From Eledone cirrhosa (taxonomy: Eukaryota): a stretch of DNA of 64,000 nt. The DNA lies in NCBI GenBank assembly GCA_964016885.1, contig OZ024743.1:104656001-104720000 (forward strand), written 5' to 3'. The position numbers were made by a program, and so were the translations under genes. Below, piece after piece: positions 17,993-52,686 of the stretch. Numbering within the stretch: position 1 is the stretch's first letter; every line of letters starts with the position of its first letter. The notes under the pieces were generated by a model, which saw only the letters and a program-made list of their open reading frames with translations, was not told where the DNA came from and did no database searches.

Positions 17993-18673
17993 TGGCGGTG
18001 GATTGGCAGTATCAGTAGAGGGTCGGACGCCATGCTTTCCAGCATAGTTACGCCCCTTTCCGATCTGAGTTCAAATCCCGCCGAGGTTGACTTTGCCTTT
18101 CATCCTTACGGGGTCGTTAAAATAAAGTACCAGTAATGCACTGAGTAATTGCTGGCCTTGTGCCTAAAGTAGAAACAATTATTTCTTTCAAATCCCGCCG
18201 AGGTTAACTTTACCTTTCATCCTTACGGGGTCGATAAAATAAAGTACCAGTAATGCACTGGGTAATTGCTGGCCTTGTGCCAAAAAGTAGAAACAATTAT
18301 TTCTTCTTACTTTATAATATTTTACATAGCTCTGATATTGTGTCAATCTAATTATTTCGATTATCTTGTCTCTCATAATCATAGAGCAACACTGGTTAAG
18401 GTCGACAACACACAATCTCACATACTTGTGAAAAAATATACGTTTATATATACATGTATATGTATGGATGCACATATATCTGTGTACCTCTCTGAATTGG
18501 CAGTATCGGTAGAGGGCTGGACGCCATGTTTTCTAGCATAGTTACGTTCCTTTACGATCTGAGTTCAAATCCCGCCGAGGTTAACTTTGCCTTTCATCCT
18601 TACGGGTTCGATAAAATAAAGTACCAGTAATCTAGTGGGTAATTGCTGGCCTTGTGCCTAAAGTAGAAACAAT

Positions 18674-25750: not shown

Positions 25751-25821
25751 TTAGAAATTCTACCTGTTTTATGTGAAAAAAGTGGCTCCAGAGGTATTAA
25801 GATTTGGTTGGTTGATGTGTA

Positions 25822-25883
<62 letters not shown>

Positions 25884-25885
<2 letters not shown>

Positions 25886-26621
25886 GATAATTTAATATAT
25901 CAACTAACATAAGCGCACAGATGCACGCCCATGCCAGCAAATACACAGGTTATGTCATAGTACCTAGGTGGTTCAATGCAGGAGAATGCAGAACAATAAT
26001 ATAAAGGACGTAAAATAAGAAAATATTTTTTTAAAAAAATTTAAAAAAAATTTTTTTCTTACTTAAATTTTCACTCCAACTAATTAGTTTCTGCAATGGG
26101 ATAAAGACAGTTACGTAATCTAACTGTCGAGAATTCATTGCGTCATCAGGAAGTCTATTCTCAGTTAAGTCTCCAGGCAATGCGCGGACACTGGCGGCTC
26201 ATATAAAAATAATAATAATTCGGTAGATCGAACAGCTTGCGAGGACTGGATTCTATGTACCGAAATTCTCACTGCTTCAAGTCAAATGGCCGATTCTAAA
26301 GAATCAATCACGTGACACAGAGGCTAGTTAGAAGGAATGGGATGGTAAGATGACTGACGCCTACTAACACCCCAAAAAAAATTTTTTTAGAAGTGGTTTT
26401 GACAAGTTTGCTCGACAAATCAGTGATTTGGAGATAAATATAGATAATTTAATATATCAACTAACATAAGCGCACAGATGCACGCCCATGCCAGCAAATA
26501 CACAGGTTATGTCATAGTACCTAGGTGGTTCAATGCAGGAGAATGCAGAACAATAATATAAAGGACGTAAAATAAGAAAATATTTTTTTAAAAAAATTTA
26601 AAAAAAATTTTTTTCTTACTT
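25884..26621 (-). mobile_element. Retrozyme-like partial tandem element (557-nt period) carrying a hammerhead
   Basis: Identical ~180-bp direct repeats at 25884-26064 and 26441-26621; HHR between them; (TA)n flanks. Confidence 0.75.
26073..26154 (-). ncRNA. Type I hammerhead ribozyme with extended stem II
   Basis: acttc CTGATGA c gcaatg…gacagtta gattacg taactgtc…cattgc a GAAA ctaattag TT ggagt. Confidence 0.75.
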
Positions 26622-26644
26622 TTTTATATATATATATATATATA

Positions 26645-27197
26645 TAAACGGAAAAAATGAAACGAAATTTCATTTCCCACTCTTAGTACAGCTGTTACTT
26701 AAATATAAGTATGTATACGTACATACATATATGTATACAGACATACAGTAGTATGTATATATATATATATATACATACATGCACACATATATATATGTAC
26801 GTATGGATTCACCAAACATTTATTATAATGCTCGGTGTGTTTGTAAACAAACATCCCGTATTAAGCCGTAGTGTCTAGCAACCACCGTTGCTCGTTTGTT
26901 CAACACTGACAAAGGAACGCTGTACTAGTTTCAAGCTTGTTAGCTATCGTCAGCAACGTATATACGTATAGCTAACAAGCTTGAAACTAGTACAGCGTTC
27001 CTTTGTCAGTGTTGAACAAACGAGCAACGGTGGTTGCTAGAAACTACGGCTTAATACGGGATGTTTGTTTACAAACACACCGAGCATTATAATAATTGTT
27101 TGGTGAATCCATACGTACATATATATATGTGTGTATGTATATATATATATACATACTACTGTACGTCTGTATACAAATATGTATGTACGTATACATA

Positions 27198-27205
<8 letters not shown>
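26645..27205 (-). mobile_element. Palindromic pLTR-like element (~240-bp arms, 20-nt spacer) plus ~55-nt tail
   Basis: Arms 26703-26947 and 26968-27205; the HHR overlaps the left arm and spacer; (TA)n flanks. Confidence 0.8.
26917..26959 (-). ncRNA. Minimal type I hammerhead ribozyme (Penelope-type)
   Basis: acgttg CTGACGA t agct aaca agct t GAAA ctag TA cagcgt; palindromic stem III; GUA site. Confidence 0.78.
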
Positions 27206-27289
<84 letters not shown>

Positions 27290-32640: not shown

Positions 32641-32844
32641 TTCAGATATTTTCTTAACGAAAAGCATTGGCCCCTAAAATACTACAGTGGGCCCTGCAAT
32701 GCTAGTAGTAGCCGCTGCAATACTACAGTGGGCTCCCTTGGATCTACTTACCATTAGGCAAGCTGGTAATCTGGCCAGTCTGCCACAGTATACATATTTA
32801 TATACATATATATATATATATATATAATTCTCTGAGTGAAAAGA

Positions 32845-32930
32845 ACCTTCTGAGGAGAGTCATTCTTTTCAATGGAGGCCCGTAAGGACTGTCCATTTAT
32901 TTTTGTGACTCGAAACCGTTCGGTAAAGGT
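32845..32930 (+). ncRNA. Canonical type I hammerhead ribozyme with extended stem II
   Basis: acctt CTGAGGA gagtca…aatgga…tccatt…tgactc GAAA cc gttc gg TA aaggt; G10.1-C11.1 pair; GUA site. Confidence 0.85.
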
Positions 32931-32996
32931 AACCATAGCAGGTAAAGTGAATTTTTTGAAATTTATTTTAAAACTTATTCTTATTTGCTAAACTTG

Positions 32997-33101
<105 letters not shown>

Positions 33102-33403
33102 TCATGTGTGTGCATATATATATATATATGCACACACATGAATCTTCCAACTGTTAGAAAAGAGAATATGAGAAAAGATATTGAAAAAAAATATATATAT
33201 GAGAGTCTAAAATATAGTAATTGATTCTTACGCAAGATACCACCGGGTGTGATGGAAGCCGGGAACTAATAATTGTGAAGCAGACTCCTTAACCATTTGG
33301 CTATGCTGCCTCCAGGAAGTAGCTGTAGCAGTAGAGGTAGTAGTAGAAGTGGATGCGGTGGTAGTAGTAGAGGTTGAAGTTGTGGTAATGGTTGTAGTAG
33401 TAG

Positions 33404-36400
33404 TGGTAATAGTACAGGTAGATATAGTGACAGTAGTGGTATTAGTACAGGTAGATATAGTGACAGTAGTAGTAATAGTATAGGTAGATATAGTGACAGT
33501 AGTAGTAATAGTACAGGTATATATAGTGACAGTAGTAGTAATAGTATAGGTAGATATAGTGATAGTAGTGGTAATAGTATAGGTAGATATAGTGACAGTA
33601 GTAGTAATAGTACAGGTAGATATAGTGACAGTAGTAGTAATAGTATAGGTAGATAGAGTGACAGTAGTAGTAATAGTACAGGTAGATATACTGACAGTAG
33701 TGGTAATAGTATAGGTAGATATAGTGACAGTAGTAGTAATAGTACAGGTAGATATAGTGATAGTAGTGGTAATAGTATAGGTAGATATACTGACAGTAGT
33801 GGTAATAGTATAGGTAGATATAGTGACAGTAGTAGTAATAGTATAGGTAGATATAGTGACAGTAGTAGTAATAGTATAGGTAGATATAGTGATAGTAGTG
33901 GTAATAGTACAGGTAGATATAGTGACAGTAGTAGTAATAGTATAGGTAGATATAGTGACAGTAGTAGTAATAGTATAGGTAGATATAGTGACAGTAGTAG
34001 TAATAGTACAGGTAGATATAGTGACAGTAGTAGTAATAGTACAGGTAGATATAGTGACAGTAGTGGTAATAGTACAGGTAGATATAGTGACAGTATTAGT
34101 AATTATACAGGTAGATATAGTGATAGTAGTGGTAATAGTATAGGTAGATATAGTGACAGTAGTAGTAATAGTATAGGTAGATATAGTGACAGTAGTGGTA
34201 ATAGTATAGGTAGATATAGTGACAGTAGTAGTAATAGTATAGGTAGATATAGTGACAGTAGTAGTAATAGTATAGGTAGATATAGTGACAGTAGTAGTAA
34301 TAGTACAGGTAGATATAGTGACAGTAGTAGTAATAGTACAGGTAGATATAGTGACAGTAGTAGTAATAGTATAGGTAGATATAGTGACAGTAGTAGTAAT
34401 AGTACAGGTAGATAGAGTGACAGTAGTAGTAATAGTACAGGTAGATATAGTGACAGTAGTAGTAATAGTATAGGTAGATATAGTGACAGTAGTGGTAATA
34501 GTACAGGTAGATATAGTGACAGTAGTAGTAATAGTACAGGTAGATATAGTGACAGTAGTGGTAATAGTATAGGTAGATATAGTGACAGTAGTGGTAATAG
34601 TACAGGTAGATATAGTGACAGTAGTAGTAATAGTATAGGTAGATATAGTGACAGTAGTGGTAATAGTATAGGTAGATATAGTGACAGTAGTAGTAATAGT
34701 ATAGGTAGATATAGTGACAGTAGTGGTAATAGTACTGGTAGATATAGTGAGAGTAGTAATAATAGTACAGGTATATATAGTGACAGTAGTGGTAATAGTA
34801 CTGGTAGATATAGTGACAGTAGTGGTAATAGTACAGGTAGATATAGTGACAGTAGTAGTAATAGTACAGGTAGATATAGTGACAGTAGTAGTAATAATAT
34901 AGGTAGATATAGTGACAGTAGTGGTAATAGTACAGGTAGATATAGTGACAGTAGTAGTAATAGTACAGGTAGATATAGTGACAGTAGTAGTAATAATATA
35001 GGTAGATATAGTGACAGTAGTGGTAATAGTACAGGTAGATATAGTGACAGTAGTGGTAATAGTACAGGTAGATATAGTGACAGTAGTAGTAATAGTACAG
35101 GTAGATATAGTGACAGTAGTGGTAATAGTACAGGTAGATATAGTGACAGTAGTGGTAATAGTACAGGTATATATAGTGACAGTAGTAGTAATAGTATAGG
35201 TAGATATAGTGACAGTAGTGGTAATAGTACAGGTAGATATAGTGACAGTAGTAGTAATAATATAGGTAGATATAGTGACAGTAGTGGTAATAGTACAGGT
35301 AGATATAGTGACAGTAGTAGTAATAGTACAGGTAGATATAGTGACAGTAGTGGTAATAGTATAGGTAGATATAGTGACAGTAGTAGTAATAGTACAGGTA
35401 GATATAGTGACAGTAGTGGTAATAGTACAGGTAGATATAGTGACAGTAGTAGTAATAGTACAGGTAGATATAGTGACAGTAGTAGTAATAGTACAGGTAG
35501 ATATAGTGACAGTAGTAGTAATAGTATAGGTAGATATAGTGACAGTAGTGGTAATAGTACAGGTAGATATAGTGACAGTAGTAGTAATAGTACAGGTAGA
35601 TATAGTGACAGTAGTGGTAATAGTACAGGTAGATATAGTGACAGTAGTAGTAATAGTACAGGTAGATATAGTGACAGTAGTGGTAATAGTATAGGTAGAT
35701 ATAGTGACAGTAGTGGTAATATTATAGGTAGATATAGTGACAGTAGTGGTAATAGTACAGGTAGATATAGTGACAGTAGTAGTAATAGTACAGGTAGATA
35801 TAGTGACAGTAGTAGTAATAGTACAGGTAGATATAGTGACAGTAGTGGTAATAGTATAGGTAGATATAGTGACAGTAGTGGTAATAGTACAGGTATATAG
35901 AGTGACAGTAGTGGTAATAGTACAGGTAGATATAGTGACAGTAGTGGTAATAGTACAGGTATATAGAGTGACAGTAGTGGTAATAGTACAGGTAGATATA
36001 GTGACAGTAGTAGTAATAGTACAGGTAGATATAGTGACAGTAGTAGTAATAGTACAGGTAGATATAGTGACAGTAGTAGTAATAGTACAGGTAGATATAG
36101 TGACAGTAGTAGTAATAGTACAGGTAGATATAGTGACAGTAGTAGTAATAGTACAGGTAGATATAGTGACAGTAGTGGTAATAGTACAGGTAGATATAGT
36201 GACAGTAGTAGTAATAGTACACGTAGATATAGTGACAGTAGTGGTAATAGTATAGGTAGATATAGTGACAGTAGTGGTAATAGTACAGGTATATAGAGTG
36301 ACAGTAGTAGTAATAGTACAGGTAGATATAGTGACAGTAGTAGTAATAGTACAGGTAGATATAGTGACAGTAGTAGTAATAGTACAGGTAGATATAGTGA

Positions 36401-39400
36401 TAGTAGTAGTAATAGTATAGGTAGATACAGTGACAGTAGTGGTAATAGTACAGGTATATAGAGTGACAGTAGTGGTAATAGTACAGGTAGATATAGTGAC
36501 AGTAGTAGTAATAGTACAGGTAGATATAGTGATAGTAGTAGTAATAGTATAGGTAGATACAGTGACAGTAGTGGTAATAGTACAGGTATATAGAGTGACA
36601 GTAGTGGTAATAGTACAGGTAGATATAGTGACAGTAGTAGTAATAGTACAGGTAGATATAGTGACAGTAGTAGTAATAGTACAGGTAGATATAGTGACAG
36701 TAGTGGTAATAGTACAGGTATATAGAGTGACAGTAGTGGTAATAGTACAGGTAGATATAGTGACAGTAGTAGTAATAGTACAGATAGATATAGTGACAGT
36801 AGTAGTAATAGTATAGGTAGATATAGTGACAGTAGTAGTAATAGTATAGGTAGATATAGTGACAGTAGTGGTAATAGTATAGGTAGATATAGTGACAGTA
36901 GTGGTAATAGTACAGGTAGATATAGTGACAGTAGTGGTAATAGTACAGGTATATAGAGTGACAGTAGTGGTAATAGTACAGGTAGATATAGTGACAGTAG
37001 TAGTAATAGTATAGGTAGATATAGTGACAGTAGTGGTAATAGTACAGGTAGATATAGTGACAGTAGTAGTAATAGTATAGGTAGATATAGTGACAGTAGT
37101 GGTAATAGTACAGGTAGATATAGTGACAGTAGTAGTAATAGTATAGGTAGATATAGTGACAGTAGTAGTAATAGTATAGGTAGATATAGTGACAGTAGTA
37201 GTAATAGTATAGGTAGATATAGTGACAGTAGTAGTAATAGTACAGGTAGATATAGTGACAGTAGTGGTAATAGTACAGGTAGATATAGTGACAGTAGTAG
37301 TAATAGTATAGGTAGATATAGTGACAGTAGTAGTAATAGTACAGGTAGATATAGTGACAGTAGTGGTAATAGTACAGGTATATAGAGTGACAGTAGTGGT
37401 AATAGTACAGGTAGATATAGTGACAGTAGTAGTAATAGTACAGGTAGATATAGTGACAGTAGTGGTAATTGTACAGGTAGATATAGTGACAGTAGTAGTA
37501 ATAGTATAGGTAGATATAGTGACAGTAGTGGTAATAGTACAGGTAGATATAGTGACAGTAGTAGTAATAGTACAGGTAGATATAGTGACAGTAGTGGTAA
37601 TAGTACAGGTAGATATAGTGACAGTAGTAGTAATAGTACAGGTAGATATAGTGACAGTAGTAGTAATAGTACAGGTAGATATAGTGACAGTAGTAGTAAT
37701 AGTACAGGTAGATATAGTGATAGTAGTAGTAATAGTACAGGTAGATATAGTGACAGTAGTAGTAATAGTACAGGTAGATATAGTGACAGTAGTGGTAATA
37801 GTACAGGTAGATATAGTGACAGTAGTAGTAATAGTACAGGTAGATATAGTGATAGTAGTAGTAATAGTACAGGTAGATATAGTGATAGTAGTAGTAATAG
37901 TACAGGTAGATATAGTGACAGTAGTGGTAATATTACAGGTAGATATAGTGACAGTAGTGGTAATAGTATAGGTAGATATAGTGACAGTAGTAGTAATAGT
38001 ATAGGTAGATACAGTGACAGTAGTGGTAATAGTACAGGTAGATATAGTGACAGTAGTAATAATAGTACAGGTAGATATAGTGACAGTAGTGGTAATAGTA
38101 CAGGTAGATATAGTGACAGTAGTGGTAATAGTACAGGTAGATATAGTGATAGTAGTGGTAATAGTGTAGGTAGATATAGTGACAGTAGGAGTAATAGTAT
38201 AGGTAGATATAGTGACAGTAGGAGTAATAGTACAGGTAGATATAGTGATAGTAGTGGTAATATTACAGGTAGATATAGTGACAGTAGTAGTAATAGTATA
38301 GGTAGATATAGTGACAGTAGTGGTAATAGTATAGGTAGATATAGTGACAGTAGTGGTAATAGTATAGGTAGATATAGTGACAGTAGTGGTAATAGTATAG
38401 GTAGATATAGTGACAGTAGTAGTAATAGTATAGGTAGATATAGTGACAGTAGTGGTAATAGTACAGGTAGATATAGTGACAGTAGTGGTAATAGTACAGG
38501 TAGATATAGTGACAGTAGTAGTAATAGTACAGGTAGATATAGTGACAGTAGTGGTAATAGTACAGGTAGATATAGTGACAGTAGTAGTAATAGTACAGGT
38601 AGATATAGTGACAGTAGTGGTAATAGTACAGGTAGATATAGTGACAGTATTAGTAATTATACAGGTAGATATAGTGACAGTAGTAGTAATAGTACAGGTA
38701 GATATAGTGACAGTAGTGGTAATAGTACAGGTAGATATAGTGACAGTAGTAGTAATAGTATAGGTAGATATAGTGACAGTAGTAGTAATAGTACAGGTAG
38801 ATATAGTGACAGTAGTAGTAATAGTATAGGTAGATATAGTGACAGTAGTAGTAATAGTACAGGTAGATATAGTGACAGTAGTAGTAATAGTATAGGTAGA
38901 TATAGTGACAGTAGTAGTAATAGTACATATGGATATAGTGACAGTAGTGGTAATAGTAGAGGTAGATATAGTGACAGTAGTAGTAATAGTACAGGTAGAT
39001 ATAGTGACAGTAGTAGTAATAGTACAGGTAGATATAGTGACAGTAGTGGTAATAGTACAGGTAGATATAGTGACAGTAGTGGTAATAGTACAGGTAGATA
39101 TAGTGACAGTAGTAGTAATAGTACAGGTAGATATAGTGACAGTAGTAGTAATAGTACAGGTAGATATAGTGACAGTAGTAGTAATAGTACAGGTAGATAT
39201 AGTGACAGTAGTAGTAATAGTACAGGTAGATATAGTGACAGTAGTAGTAATAGTACAGGTAGATATAGTGACAGTAGTAGTAATAGTACAGGTAGATATA
39301 GTGACAGTAGTAGTAATAGTATAGGTAGATATAGTGACAGTAGTGGTAATAGTATAGGTAGATATAGTGACAGTAGTAGTAATAGTATAGGTAGATATAG

Positions 39401-40994
39401 TGACAGTAGTAGTAATTGTACAGGTAGATATAGTGACAGTAGTAGTAATAGTACAGGTAGATATAGTGACAGTAGTAGTAATAGTACAGGTAGATATAGT
39501 GACAGTAGTGGTAATAGTACAGGTAGATATAGTGACAGTAGTAGTAATTGTACAGGTAGATATAGTGACAGTAGTAGTAATAGTACAGGTAGATATAGTG
39601 ACAGTAGTGGTAATAGTACAGGTAGATATAGTGACAGTAGTAGTAATTGTACAGGTAGATATAGTGACAGTAGGAGTAATAGTACAGGTAGATATAGTGA
39701 CAGTAGTGGTAATAGTACAGGTAGATATAGTGACAGTAGTGGTAATAGTACAGGTAGATAGAGTGACAGTAGTAGTAATTGTACAGGTAGATATAGTGAC
39801 AGTAGTAGTAATTGTACAGGTAGATATAGTGACAGTAGTAGTAATAGTACAGGTATATAGAGTGATAGTAGTGGTAATAGTACAGGTAGATATAGTGACA
39901 GTAGTAGTAATTGTACAGGTAGATATAGTGACAGTAGTGGTAATAGTACAGGTAGATATAGTGACAGTAGTAGTAATAGTACAGGTAGATATAGTGACAG
40001 TAGGAGTAATAGTATAGGTAGATAGAGTGACAGTAGTGGTAATAGTACAGGTAGATATAGTGACAGTAGTAGTAATAGTACAGGTAGATATAGTGATAGT
40101 AGTGGTAATAGTAGAGGTAGATATAGTGACAGTAGTAGTAATAGTATAGGTAGATATAGTGACAGTAGTGGTAATTGTACAGGTAGATATAGTGACAGTA
40201 GTGGTAATAGTACAGGTAGATATAGTGACAGTAGTAGTAATAGTACAGGTAGATATAGTGACAGTAGTGGTAATAGTACAGGTAGATAGAGTGACAGTAG
40301 TAGTAATAGTATAGGTAGATATAGTGACAGTAGTGGTAATAGTACAGGTAGATATAGTGACAGTAGTGGTAATAGTACAGGTAGATATAGTGACAGTAGT
40401 AGTAATAGTATAGGTAGATATAGTGACAGTAGTAGTAATAGTACAGGTAGATATAGTGACAGTAGGAGTAATAGTATAGGTAGATATAGTGACAGTAGTG
40501 GTAATAGTACAGGTAGATATAGTGACAGTAGTAGTAATTGTACAGGTAGATATAGTGACAGTAGTAGTAATAGTACAGGTAGATATAGTGACAGTAGTAG
40601 TAATAGTACAGGTAGATATAGTGACAGTAGTGGTAATAGTACAGGTAGATATAGTGACAGTAGTAGTAATAGTACAGGTAGATATAGTGACAGTAGTAGT
40701 AATAGTACAGGTAGATATAGTGACAGTAGTGGTAATAGTATAGGTAGATATAGTGACAGTAGTAGTAATAGTACAGGTAGATATAGTGACAGTAGTGGTA
40801 ATAGTATAGGTAGATATAGTGACAGTAGTAGTAATAGTACAGGTAGATATAGTGACAGTAGTAGTAATAGTACAGGTAGATATAGTGACAGTAGTAGTAA
40901 TAGTACAGGTAGATATAGTGACAGTAGTAGTAATAGTACAGGTAGATATAGTGACAGTAGTGGTAATAGTACAGGTAGATATAGTGACAGTAGT
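33404..40994. repeat. 33-bp tandem satellite, ~230 copies
   Basis: Unit gtaatagta(c/t)aggtagatatagtgacagtagt(a/g); 7.6 kb, frame maintained throughout. Confidence 0.97.
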
Positions 40995-49304: not shown

Positions 49305-50068
49305 AGAGGTGGTGGATTGGCAGAATCGGTAGAGCGTCGGACAGCATGCTTCGTGGCGTTTGTTTCGGCTCTTTAGGTTTAAATACCACCCAAGTCATCT
49401 TTGCCATACATCCTTCCAAGGTCAATAAAATAAAGTACCAGTCAAGTACTGGGGTCAACCTAATCGACTTCGACTCCTCTAAGTTGCTAACCCTGTGCCT
49501 AAGTTAGAGCCTGTTGGATTGGCAGAATCGTTAGGGCGTCGGATAAAACGTATCTTTACGTTCTGAGTTCCAATCACGCCGTGGTCAACTTTACATTTCA
49601 ACCTTCTAAGGTCGATATAATCCATTTTTTCCGCGCCCCCAAATTGCTGACCTTGGACATGAATTAAAGATCTTTACTAATGTGACTAGCTATTATATAT
49701 TAATGTATCGGTAGAGGGTCGGACACCATGCTTTACAGCAGAGTCACGGCCCTTTATGGTCTGAGTTCAAATCTCGCCGAGATCAACTTTGCCTTTCATC
49801 CTTACTGAGTCGATAAAATAAAGCACCAGTAATTCATTGGGGTTATTGCTGGGCTTGGGCCAAAAATAGAAATGATTACGGTGGATTGGCAGTATCGGTA
49901 GAGGGTCGGACGCCATGCTTTCCAGCATAGTTACGTCTCTTTACGATCTGAGTTCAAATCCCGCCGAGGTTGATTTTGCCTTTCATCCTTACGGGGTCGA
50001 TAAAATAAAGTACCAGTAATACACTGGGTAATTGCTGACCTTGTGCCTAAAGTAGAAACAATTATTAT
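49305..50068 (+). mobile_element. Four head-to-tail Meta-core SINEs
   Basis: Heads at ~49310, ~49515, ~49706 and ~49880. Confidence 0.85.
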
Positions 50069-50884: not shown

Positions 50885-51335
50885 ATAATTGTTTCTACTT
50901 TTGGCACAAGGCCAGCAATTAACCCACTGCATTACTGGTACTTTATTTTATCGACTTCGTAAGGATGAAAGGCAAAGTTGACCTCGGCGGGATTTGAACT
51001 CAGATCATAAAGGGCCGTAACTCTTTGCTGCAAAGCATGGCGTCCGATGATAATTGTTTCTACTTTTGGCACAAGGCTAGTAATTTACCAGTTCATTACT
51101 GGTACTTTATTTTATCGACCTGGTAAGGATGAAAGGCAAAGTTAATAATAATAATTGTTTCTACTTTAGGCACAAGGCCATCAAATACCCAGTACATTAC
51201 TGGTACTTTATTTTATCGACCCGGTAAGGATAAAAGGCAAAGTTAACCTCGGCGGGATTTGAACTCAGACTGTAAAGGGACGTAACTATGCTAGAAAGCA
51301 TGGCGTCCGACCCTCTACCGATACTGCCAATCCAC
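50885..51335 (-). mobile_element. Tandem Meta-core SINE copies and partials
   Basis: Repeated aattgtttctactt…ggcacaaggc 3' ends. Confidence 0.85.

Positions 51336-51834: not shown

Positions 51835-52686
<852 letters not shown>

What the first reader, a model, noticed from the sequence alone, without database searches (positions are those of the whole stretch)
25884..26621. Second retrozyme-like partial tandem (557-nt period) with an extended-stem-II hammerhead
Identical ~180-bp repeats imply a recent insertion. The HHR at 26073-26154 has palindromic stem III ACUAAUUAGU, a GUU site and a stem II extended by an 8-bp hairpin. The sequence is unrelated to the 51931 element, yet the monomer size, (TA)n context and layout are nearly the same, suggesting a size-constrained class.
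Basis: partly seen in the sequence, partly recalled or inferred. Interest (0 to 1): 0.72.

Follow-up and report, generated by a model that had tools for sequence, protein, structure and literature searches.

The report
Hammerhead retrozyme copy in TA repeat
This 745-base stretch is one truncated copy of a non-coding repeat found thousands of times in this animal genome; each unit carries a self-cutting (hammerhead) RNA fold that comparison of copies supports but whose cutting is untested, and the shape of the copies suggests they are likely written into TA repeats by the enzymes of Penelope-like jumping genes.

Summary
Observation confirmed. 25877-26621 is 1.34 head-to-tail units of a 557-nt non-coding repeat lying between (TA)n runs. 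A type I hammerhead (HHR) lies on the minus strand at 26154-26073.

The 188-bp "repeats" are not LTRs. They are the overlap of a 5'-truncated multimer.

The family has at least 2,564 HHR-bearing units genome-wide, with sister families of 543 and 525 nt. All visible outer ends (30 of 30 in the first sample) abut (TA)n. Outer ends fall at two fixed sites, each just downstream of a conserved hairpin. Inner ends vary.

Two-armed, head-to-head insertions pair one site-A end with one site-B end: 10 of 10 and 17 of 20 in two samples, 12 of 14 in the sister family. This is the Penelope-like-element footprint.

Rfam misses the HHR. It has a non-canonical C•A where G10.1-C11.1 normally sits and a two-part helix II. 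Covariation across sister families supports the fold (9 of 20 pairs with double changes).

It is a new member of the known metazoan non-LTR retrozymes. Cleavage, circular RNA and the mobilising element are inferred. One insertion joins a retrozyme arm to a young Hydra-like Penelope arm.

Earlier notes of this scan report the same kind of element on other DNA of this genome. The "size-constrained class" idea is not supported.

The parts
25817..25876 (.). Left (TA)n microsatellite, the target. The insertion's outer (RNA 3') end merges into it.
   Evidence: All 30 visible outer ends in 19 other arrays plus the window copy abut (TA)n.
25877..26433 (-). Full 557-nt unit (query positions q1-q557). 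The RNA sense, which is the HHR strand, is the minus strand.
   Evidence: 196 matches at 96-100% identity on many contigs; no ORF longer than 55 codons stop-to-stop. GC 35.7%.
26434..26621 (-). Partial second unit (q1-q188). Window 26621 is the variable inner end, read as a 5' truncation of the copied RNA.
   Evidence: Inner ends differ from insertion to insertion.
26622..26648 (.). Right side of the target: TTTT followed by (TA)n.
26073..26154 (-). Type I hammerhead fold. Helix I: 26154-26150 with 26077-26073. CUGAUGA: 26149-26143. Unpaired C: 26142. Helix IIa: 26141-26136 with 26098-26093. Internal loop: 26135-26129 and 26105-26099. Helix IIb: 26128-26121 with 26113-26106, loop 26120-26114. 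Unpaired A: 26092. GAAA: 26091-26088. Helix III: 26088-26079. Predicted cut between 26078 and 26077.
   Evidence: sequence. (covariation over 34 distinct HHRs from sister families). (two compensatory pairs in helix IIb in a contig of another coded organism). No Rfam hit.
25877..25892 (-). Start site B (RNA ...AAUUAUCUAUAU-3'). This is the outer end used by this copy.
   Evidence: A second copy lies at 26434-26449, internal to the tandem.
25895..25946 (-). Hairpin B, just upstream (in the RNA) of start site B.
   Evidence: conserved in the 557-, 543- and 525-nt families, with 2 compensatory pairs. Also present in the circular fold.
25999..26011 (-). Start site A (RNA ...ACGUCCUUUAUAU-3'). Not used in this copy. 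It is the alternative outer end of the family.
   Evidence: many arrays end at q123.
26014..26063 (-). Hairpin A, an A/U-only hairpin just upstream (in the RNA) of start site A.
   Evidence: The self-complementary hits at q137-188 show the same hairpin.
26297..26322 (-). Block conserved between the 557- and 525-nt families. It contains CACGTG. Role unknown.
   Evidence: the 30-nt windows here are 80-83% identical against 70% overall. One search gives the sequence.

Best explanation
The stretch 25877-26621 is a one-armed, 1.34-unit insertion into a (TA)n microsatellite of a 557-nt non-coding repeat family whose minus-strand RNA carries a type I hammerhead fold supported by covariation. It was probably made by target-primed reverse transcription by the enzymes of a Penelope-like element (PLE), likely from a circular or multimeric RNA.

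Shown here:
- The family is dispersed and numerous.
- Every visible outer end in the first sample sits in (TA)n.
- Outer ends, which are the 3' ends in RNA sense, fall at two fixed sites. Site A is q123 (...CCUUUAUAU). Site B is q1-9 (...AUCUAUAU). Each lies a few bases downstream of a conserved hairpin.
- Inner ends vary.
- Two-armed insertions are head-to-head and pair one A end with one B end.
- Units in both arms carry the same insertion-specific variants.

Inferred life cycle:
1. Tandem copies would be transcribed.
2. The HHR would cut between U17 and G1.1 (window 26078|26077).
3. A host RNA ligase would close unit-length RNA into circles.
4. A PLE endonuclease would open a (TA)n tract.
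5. The TA-ended DNA 3'-OH groups would anneal to the UAUAU stretch at site A or B and prime cDNA synthesis.
6. Synthesis would run round the template one to eleven times and stop at a variable point.

The window copy started at site B, ran 1.34 units and was joined to the other side of the break without a second arm. With one HHR it is most likely a dead-end copy rather than a source of RNA circles.
For: Family and spread:
- 196 matches at 96-100% identity on many contigs, from 722 first-look candidates.
- An exact 28-mer of the HHR occurs 2,564 times, against 0 for the reversed control.
- 351 further copies carry another base at the bottom of helix IIb.
- The 525-nt sister family HHR 19-mer occurs 560 times.

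Footprint:
- In 19 fetched arrays plus the window copy, all 30 visible outer ends abut (TA)n.
- In that sample, 10 of 10 two-armed insertions with both ends visible pair q123 with q1.
- In 40 loci taken in coordinate order on contig C1, 20 were called two-armed. 17 of those 20 are A+B. The other 3 each have an end not flanked by (TA)n. None is a clear A+A or B+B.
- In the 525-nt sister family, 12 of 14 two-armed insertions pair q1 with q116-120.
- The HHR strand order is always minus then plus in two-armed loci among the first 100 places (8 of 8 by my reading).

One template per insertion:
- Within-array identity is 97.4-99.9%, while the same units are 86.5-98.5% identical to the window unit.
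- Units of opposite arms are as alike as units of one arm, in 6 arrays with 3 or more full units.
- Insertion-specific variants are present in every unit (L039, L045, L046, L047, L050).

HHR:
- The alignment is a plain MAFFT alignment of 34 distinct HHRs, not fitted to the structure.
- On it, 92.9% of cells pair, against 36-47% when the partners are slid.
- 9 of 20 pairs change on both sides.
- The covariation score is 0.333 against 0.139 in shuffles (0 of 500 reach it).
- One pair shows all four Watson-Crick types.
- A contig from a run of another coded organism carries two compensatory changes in helix IIb.

RNA structure: the circular fold is -133.5 kcal/mol against -108.1 +/- 7.0 for shuffles (z = -3.6), with 62% of bases paired.

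PLE link:
- Passages of Craig et al. 2021 (PMC8557442) describe the same traits for PLEs. These are partial tandems, an inverted 5'-truncated copy, an extension at one end only, and (TA)n targeting in Hydra and Naiad.
- Two young, very numerous PLE families with intact ORFs of 711-715 and 785 aa end in (TA)n in this genome.
- One sampled locus (L142/L174) joins a 5'-truncated arm of the 785-aa PLE head-to-head to a 557-family arm. Only 6 nt and no (TA)n lie between them, and each arm ends at its own normal 3' end in (TA)n.
- 3 of 60 arm inner ends fall at q199-202, the predicted cut, where 0.43 is my own expected figure. One (L124) is exact.
Against: - No hammerhead hit in Rfam, even at E up to 10.
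- The pair at 10.1/11.1 is C•A (A•A in some sister families) instead of the usual G-C. I did not find what such a mismatch does to cleavage.
- Cleavage has not been tested.
- No RNA data were available, so transcription, circles and ligation are all inferred.
- Most arm inner ends are not at the cleavage site (57 of 60).
- Some arrays alternate two unit variants (L035, L038). A single monomer circle does not explain that; a dimer circle or a multimeric transcript would.
- The abundant G-to-A change at the bottom of helix IIb is not compensated.
- Neither PLE family shares sequence with the unit (blastn word size 7).
- The chimeric insertion is a single case.
- The core and helix III were fixed by my search patterns, so their invariance is by construction.
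Confidence: 0.8

Rival explanations
1. Same element and same PLE-type insertion, but the template is an uncleaved linear multimeric transcript of an existing array, as for the partial tandems of PLEs themselves. On this view the HHR only trims transcripts or is dispensable, and no circle is involved.
For: - Arrays alternate two unit variants (L035: A-B-A-B-A-B; L038).
- Most arms run through many HHR sites without ending there.
- Naiad PLEs spread without an HHR (Craig et al. 2021, passages).
- The HHR has an off-consensus 10.1/11.1.
Against: - Arms of up to 11 units would need up to 11 uncut ribozymes in one RNA.
- The HHR fold is kept by compensatory changes across families that are about 70% identical. 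That argues that it acts.
- Most arrays are homogeneous, with insertion-specific variants in every unit.
- Known metazoan retrozymes accumulate as circles (PMC7229834, passages).
Confidence: 0.25
2. A DNA-level rolling-circle element (Helitron- or Helentron-like) that makes tandem multimers and inserts at A|T sites. The hammerhead would be incidental.
For: - Insertion into TA tracts.
- A hairpin a few bases upstream of each fixed end.
- Tandem multimers with non-integer ends.
That Helitrons have a 3' hairpin and an AT target is recalled, not checked in a call.
Against: - The variable ends lie on the RNA 5' side and the fixed ends on the RNA 3' side, relative to the strand that carries a covarying ribozyme.
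- Head-to-head two-armed insertions with an A+B rule are the PLE pattern.
- One arm is joined to a 5'-truncated PLE arm.
- I did not look for a Rep/helicase partner.
Confidence: 0.04
3. A local duplication, satellite or assembly artefact with a chance hammerhead-like motif.
For: Only 1.34 units and one HHR at this locus. No Rfam hit.
Against: - Thousands of copies on many contigs with the same fixed ends.
- The chance rate of the motif is 0.01 per window.
- Covariation supports the fold.
- Pieces 99-100% identical occur in contigs of independent runs.
Confidence: 0.01

Closest known systems
Metazoan non-LTR retrozymes (Cervera and de la Pena 2020, PMC7229834; abstract and searched passages read)
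   Same: - Type I HHR in each unit.
- Short non-coding tandem repeats of low GC, dispersed in thousands of copies.
- No LTR.
- RNA predicted to be highly self-paired.
- Co-existence with PLEs, which the paper proposes as the mobiliser.
   Different: - The unit of 557 nt (sisters 525 and 543) is longer than the 150-450 bp repeats and the roughly 170-400 nt circles reported.
- The HHR has a mismatch at 10.1/11.1 and a two-part helix II of about 48 nt.
- In my word searches the paper has no occurrence of 'microsatellite', 'target site' or 'inverted'. The (TA)n targeting, the two fixed start sites and the A+B two-armed rule are therefore not in the passages I saw.
- Circles are shown there and not here.
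Penelope-like elements, Hydra clade (Craig, Yushenova, Rodriguez and Arkhipova 2021, PMC8557442; searched passages read)
   Same: - Partial tandems.
- An inverted 5'-truncated copy at the 5' side.
- An extension present at one end only.
- Insertion into (TA)n.
- An HHR.
   Different: - The 557-nt unit encodes nothing and shares no sequence with the two PLE families found here.
- The one-sided extension is 116-122 nt rather than 30-40 bp.
- Calling the two PLE families Hydra-like rests on my reading of their endonuclease motifs against the paper's text, not on a tree.
[quoted passage not shown]
   Same: Argues that non-LTR retrozymes derive from and depend on PLEs.
   Different: - Its evidence is co-distribution and pLTR phylogeny in 31 vertebrates and 4 invertebrates.
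- Here the evidence is the insertion footprint, and no pLTR homology was found.
- Its supplements were not seen and may bear on unit lengths.
Plant LTR retrozymes (Cervera, Urbina and de la Pena 2016, PMC4918200; search listing and abstract only)
   Same: Non-autonomous, HHR-bearing, thought to spread through circular RNA. The size range of 600-1000 nt is nearer to 557.
   Different: Plant elements carry type III HHRs inside true LTRs. Here the HHR is type I and lies outside the 188-bp repeat, which is only tandem overlap.
Newt satellite 2 and avocado sunblotch viroid hammerheads that cut as dimers (review PMC6155905, passages)
   Same: Short helix III capped by a palindromic loop, so that two tandem HHRs could form one long helix III.
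   Different: Helix III here has 3 bp plus AAUU. Whether it cuts as a monomer or a dimer is untested.

Membership tests
Hammerhead ribozyme, type I | Core CUGANGA ... GAAA and an NUH cleavage triplet in the right order, with helix I open | tested here: met
   CUGAUGA, GAAA and GUU present; helix I is open-ended.
Hammerhead ribozyme, type I | Three helices around the core kept by compensatory change | tested here: met
   92.9% of cells paired against 36-47% when slid. 9 of 20 pairs change on both sides (helix I 2, IIa 2, IIb 5). Helix III never varies, but it was fixed by the search pattern.
Hammerhead ribozyme, type I | G10.1-C11.1 pair closing helix II next to the core | tested here: not met
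   C and A in the window and in the 557-, 543- and 525-nt families. A and A in other sister families. The U variants sit in arrays whose other units have C, and C is followed by G, so I read them as CpG decay.
Hammerhead ribozyme, type I | Match to the curated covariance models (Rfam hammerhead families) | tested here: not met
   No hammerhead hit at gathering score or at E up to 10 on 901 and 121 bases.
Hammerhead ribozyme, type I | Site-specific self-cleavage | not testable with these tools
   Only a hint: 3 of 60 arm inner ends at q199-202, one exact.
Metazoan non-LTR retrozyme | [quoted passage not shown] | tested here: met
   GC 35.7%; no ORF over 55 codons. At 557 nt the unit exceeds the 150-450 bp reported.
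Metazoan non-LTR retrozyme | Expressed as linear and circular unit-length RNA | not testable with these tools
   No RNA run is on record among the holders. Only contigs could be laid.
Metazoan non-LTR retrozyme | Highly self-paired RNA | tested here: met
   circular MFE -133.5 kcal/mol, z = -3.6, 62% of bases paired.
PLE-type insertion (mobilised by a Penelope-like element) | Partial tandems, 5' truncation and an adjacent inverted 5'-truncated copy | tested here: met
   at family level. The window copy itself has one arm only.
PLE-type insertion (mobilised by a Penelope-like element) | [quoted passage not shown] | tested here: met
   One arm starts at site B and so carries 116-122 nt that the site-A arm lacks: 10 of 10, 17 of 20 and 12 of 14. 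The length differs from the 30-40 bp in the paper.
PLE-type insertion (mobilised by a Penelope-like element) | Microsatellite, here (TA)n, target | tested here: met
PLE-type insertion (mobilised by a Penelope-like element) | Shared terminal sequence with, or demonstrated dependence on, an autonomous PLE | tested here: inconclusive
   No sequence similarity. The 3' ends are alike only in a short ending: CUGUAUAU in the 785-aa PLE against CUUUAUAU and UCUAUAU here. One chimeric two-armed insertion.
Plant-type LTR retrozyme | HHR (type III) inside each of two LTRs | tested here: not met
   The HHR is type I and lies at 26073-26154, outside the repeated 25877-26064 / 26434-26621. PBS and PPT were not looked for.

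The most novel reading that the evidence does not exclude
The copies of this family record the mechanism by which retrozymes are written into animal genomes.

A Hydra-like Penelope enzyme would open a (TA)n tract. It would prime from both DNA ends at two hairpin-marked UAUAU sites, about 120 nt apart, on one small circular ribozyme RNA. The two reverse transcriptions would run round the circle and meet head to head. A Penelope mRNA can take the place of one arm.

The ribozyme would be a natural hammerhead class with a mismatched 10.1•11.1 position, a conserved AUUCUC/UUUAUCC internal loop and a two-part helix II. Standard models and spacer-limited motif searches overlook this class.
Probability: 0.35. 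Interest if true: 0.72.

Novelty: new member of a known kind. Interest (0 to 1): 0.52.

Why it matters
How animal retrozymes move is still a proposal in the papers I read: PLEs are named as a "strong candidate" (PMC7229834) or linked by co-distribution (the 2026 preprint). PLE integration itself is called "still undefined" (PMC8557442).

This family gives countable genomic footprints that bear on both questions:
- two fixed start sites marked by hairpins;
- a strict A+B pairing of arms;
- the same template variant in both arms;
- one retrozyme-Penelope chimera.

It also shows that covarying, probably functional hammerheads can be invisible to Rfam and to motif searches that allow only a short helix II. 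Censuses of genomic ribozymes may therefore undercount them.

For this particular locus the conclusion is modest. It is an ordinary, probably dead-end copy of that family.

Tried and rejected
- Rfam: no hammerhead at gathering score or at E up to 10.
- RNA evidence:
  - No RNA holder is listed.
  - The neighbouring part could be laid only on contigs, which show no ends, strand or level.
  - The very high summed word depth in run X1 is no measure of expression. That run's contig total suggests genomic DNA.
- Earlier notes searched by sequence for the 557 unit, the 525 unit and the 711-aa PLE ORF: nothing. Nothing near the window either.
- Homology with the window's other element (51934-52484): none.
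- Search for a compensating partner of the common G-to-A change at the base of helix IIb: the partner stays C.
- Sequence similarity between the units and either PLE family (blastn word size 7): only chance 15-25 nt hits.
- Pfam on the 711-aa PLE ORF: no RT or GIY-YIG hit, only a 0.049 chance-level match.
- Other ORFs near arrays are LINE-like RT and endonuclease fragments, unrelated to the insertion pattern.
- Enrichment of arm inner ends at the cleavage site:
  - Weak: 3 of 60, and 0 of 29 in the first sample.
  - There is a broader cluster at q150-205 (17 of 60).
  - That cluster may reflect stalling in the A/U hairpin or imprecise alignment ends.
- Literature search for 10.1/11.1 mismatches: swamped by DOIs that begin with 10.1. 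The one useful passage is the U•U mismatch at the base of helix II in axolotl HHR_Amex2.
- A search for 'hammerhead ribozyme' + 'octopus' + 'retrotransposon' found 3 papers (2 listed). Neither listed paper, by title and abstract, is about such elements.
- The isolated 88-nt HHR folds with helices I (part), IIa and IIb. An alternative pairing replaces helix III (z = -2.1). I give that little weight, since energy folding does not model the core.
- Structure prediction and complex tools were not used, because the element is non-coding.
Full report
**1. The observation**

The window holds a direct repeat of 188 nt at 25877-26064 and 26434-26621. It is 99% identical with a spacing of 557. (TA)n runs lie on both sides.

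Helix I is open, so it is type I. Helix III is the palindrome ACUAAUUAGU, which gives 3 bp and an AAUU loop if it folds on itself. The cleavage triplet is GUU. Helix II is in two parts: 6 bp, a 7x7 internal loop, then 8 bp.

My simple scan for this architecture finds this site and one other in the window, against 0.01 per window in 100 block-shuffled copies.

Two things count against a textbook hammerhead. Rfam reports none at gathering score or at E up to 10. And the position of the usual G10.1-C11.1 pair is taken by C and A.

**2. It is one copy of a large family**

The window is G000:C4:104656001-104720000 in a 3.0-Gb assembly. The 557-nt unit has 196 reported matches at 96-100% identity on many contigs, from 722 first-look candidates.

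- An exact 28-mer of the HHR occurs 2,564 times, and its reversed control 0 times.
- 351 more copies have another base at the bottom of helix IIb. They belong mostly to a subfamily with a period of 541-545 nt.
- Next to one array I found a homologous sister family with a 525-nt unit. It is about 70% identical to the 557-nt unit, and its HHR 19-mer occurs 560 times.
- A pattern that excludes C after CUGAUGA found 448 further HHRs of the same build in other sister families.

The unit has no ORF over 55 codons and 35.7% GC.

**3. Anatomy of the insertions**

I mapped 19 fetched arrays and the window copy. I count positions on the window's plus strand (q1 = 25877). The HHR RNA runs from high q to low q.

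- All 30 visible outer ends abut (TA)n.
- Every outer end is either q123 (RNA ...ACGUCCUUUAUAU, site A) or q1 (RNA ...AAUUAUCUAUAU, site B).
- Inner ends are different every time.
- Twelve insertions are two opposed arms with the variable ends facing each other. In all 10 where both outer ends are visible, one arm ends at A and the other at B.

To avoid picking by score, I then took the first 40 loci in coordinate order on contig C1.

- 20 were called two-armed. Of these, 17 are A+B. The other 3 each have an end that is not in (TA)n. None is a clear A+A or B+B.
- Five of the loci first called one-armed turned out to have a short second arm (L117, L121, L128, L145, L153).
- These copies are 84.7-99.1% identical to the window unit, so the family has been active for some time.

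The 525-nt family repeats the rule with its own sites, q1 and q116-120. This holds in 12 of 14 two-armed insertions. The two exceptions have an end outside (TA)n.

The window copy is one arm. It starts at site B (25877), runs 1.34 units and ends at q188 (26621), joined to TTTT(TA)n. So the 188-bp repeats are tandem overlap, not LTRs.

**4. One template per insertion**

- Units within an array are 97.4-99.9% identical, while the same units are 86.5-98.5% identical to the window unit.
- Units of opposite arms are as alike as units of one arm. For example, L141 shows 99.9% between arms against 94.6% to the window unit (6 arrays with at least 3 full units).
- Several arrays carry a private variant in every unit.
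- Against a simple monomer template, L035 alternates two unit types and L038 does so for six units.

**5. The hairpins at the start sites**

A fold of the three subfamilies (557, 543, 525) keeps two hairpins.

- Hairpin A is an A/U hairpin that ends 3 nt before the site-A stretch.
- Hairpin B ends a few nt before the site-B stretch. It has two compensatory pairs and several wobble-compatible changes.

Both hairpins appear in the circular fold of the whole unit. That fold is -133.5 kcal/mol against -108.1 +/- 7.0 for shuffles, z = -3.6. With only three sequences, this is modest support. That note was my lead.

**6. The ribozyme**

Between the 557- and 525-nt families, two helix I pairs and one helix IIa pair change on both sides, and helix IIb is replaced by an unrelated hairpin with a UUCG loop.

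I then aligned 34 distinct HHRs from the sister families with MAFFT, without fitting to any structure.

- 92.9% of cells pair, against 36-47% when the partners are slid.
- 9 of 20 pairs have double changes.
- One pair shows AU, CG, UA and GC.
- The covariation score is 0.333 against 0.139 in shuffles (0 of 500 reach it).

Contigs of a run labelled with another coded organism carry G-C to U-A and C-G to U-A in helix IIb, plus loop changes. No change in the core is listed.

The caveat is that my patterns required CUGAUGA, GAAAC and, helix III. Their invariance is therefore by construction.

The position after CUGAUGA is C or A. U appears in single units of arrays whose other units have C followed by G, which I read as CpG decay. 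The base before GAAA is A in 33 of the 34 aligned HHRs, and a few genomic copies have U there (3 copies). So the mismatch is a kept feature of the class. The internal loop (AUUCUC on one side, UUUAUCC or similar on the other) is conserved while the helices around it change. Its role is unknown.

A U•U mismatch at the base of helix II is reported for one axolotl retrozyme HHR (PMC7229834, passage).

**7. Who moves it**

Passages of Craig et al. 2021 describe PLE insertions in the same terms. They list 5'-truncated partial tandems, often an inverted 5'-truncated copy, and an extension at one end only. They report a bias for (TA)n in Hydra and Naiad. They also say canonical HHRs are universal in Hydra.

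In the flanks of the arrays I found two PLE families.

- The first has an ORF of 711-715 aa. It gave 84,658 first-look candidates and many intact copies at 95-97% identity. It carries its own clear HHR, and the conserved element runs about 1.2 kb past the stop codon to a TA-rich ...AAUAUAUAU ending (one copy followed by (TA)n; two copies read).
- The second has an ORF of 785 aa. It gave 62,183 candidates with copies 99% identical. Its 3' end is ...ACUGUAUAUA in (TA)n.

Both have no cysteine-pair motif between the GIY and YIG blocks. Both have CxxC and CxH near the conserved E and N, as the paper says of Hydra. That is my reading of the sequences, not a tree. Neither shares sequence with the retrozyme.

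One of the 40 sampled loci is a chimera. An arm of the 785-aa PLE, cut off at about codon 64, is joined head to head to a 557-family arm cut off at q535. Six nt and no (TA)n lie between them. The PLE arm ends at its normal 3' end in (TA)n, and the retrozyme arm ends at site A in (TA)n. I read this as one event that used two templates. It is a single case.

**8. Mechanism**

Shown:
- fixed 3' ends at two sites in (TA)n;
- variable 5' ends;
- the A+B pairing;
- the same template variant in both arms;
- a covarying HHR.

Inferred:
- transcription of arrays;
- HHR cleavage;
- ligation into circles;
- priming of cDNA by TA-ended DNA on the UAUAU endings;
- copying round the template;
- joining of the two cDNAs, comparable to twin priming of LINE-1 (recalled, not checked).

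The only direct hint of cleaved RNA is weak. Three of 60 inner ends lie at q199-202, where about 0.43 is expected, and one (L124) is exact. None of 29 does in the first sample.

I put circles at about 55% and uncleaved multimers at about 25%.

**9. Comparison and novelty**

The element fits the metazoan non-LTR retrozymes (PMC7229834) in every feature I could test. The exception is unit size: 557 nt against the 150-450 bp reported. It is a new member of that kind. It carries a variant HHR and an unusually legible PLE footprint.

Earlier notes of this scan report the same kind of two-armed, PLE-type retrozyme families of other unit sizes on other DNA of the same genome.

This locus itself has one HHR and is most likely a dead-end copy.

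Noticed in passing
window ~32842-32935, + strand: A second hammerhead-like motif with a canonical helix II base (CUGAGGA-G...C-GAAA), helix III ACCG/CGGU and a GUA site. It sits just upstream of the 7.6-kb array of 33-nt repeats at 33399-40994.
   Followed up: no
window 51934-52630: The other partial tandem (period about 551), also between (TA)n runs, with CUGAUGA on the minus strand near 52262. It shares no sequence with the 557 family. Its helix II did not pass my simple scan. A similar HHR type turned up in L163:443-523.
   Followed up: partly
L105:403-2535 (+) and about 100 similar places: Very abundant young PLE with an intact 711-715 aa ORF that Pfam does not recognise. Its own type I HHR lies about 210 nt upstream of the ATG, with U-A at 10.1/11.1. 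A long 3' region full of TG/TA repeats is conserved among copies.
   Followed up: partly
L181:1192-3510 (+) and 87 similar places: Second PLE family: 785-aa ORF, copies 99% identical, in tandem (pLTR) arrangement, 3' end ...ACUGUAUAUA in (TA)n. Only a weak HHR-like motif at L181:876.
   Followed up: partly
L142:1-2232 with L174:3440-6001: Head-to-head junction of a 5'-truncated 785-aa PLE arm and a 5'-truncated 557-family arm, with 6 nt and no (TA)n between them.
   Followed up: partly
window 26650-27215; L038:1130-1198: The DNA right of the insertion belongs to another repeat with 248-nt inverted arms (26700-26947 / 26968-27215, 87% complementary). The same repeat flanks the array in L038. 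In L037 the array sits in the (TA)n centre of a palindromic element. Such TA-tailed elements may be recurrent landing sites.
   Followed up: no
runs X4, X5, X6 laid on window 26068-26433: Contigs from runs labelled with three other coded organisms hold pieces 99-100% identical to the unit, besides more divergent ones. This could be close relatives, mislabelling or transfer; I cannot tell which.
   Followed up: no
window 18070-18305, 49705-50058, 51050-51246: Tandem or inverted copies of a short repeat with a tRNA-like 'TTCAAATCCCGCCGAG' stretch, probably a SINE.
   Followed up: no
G000:C28:8783135-8803158: A run of at least 37 units of the 541-545-nt subfamily in one orientation, far longer than typical insertions. 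It may be an array expanded after insertion.
   Followed up: no
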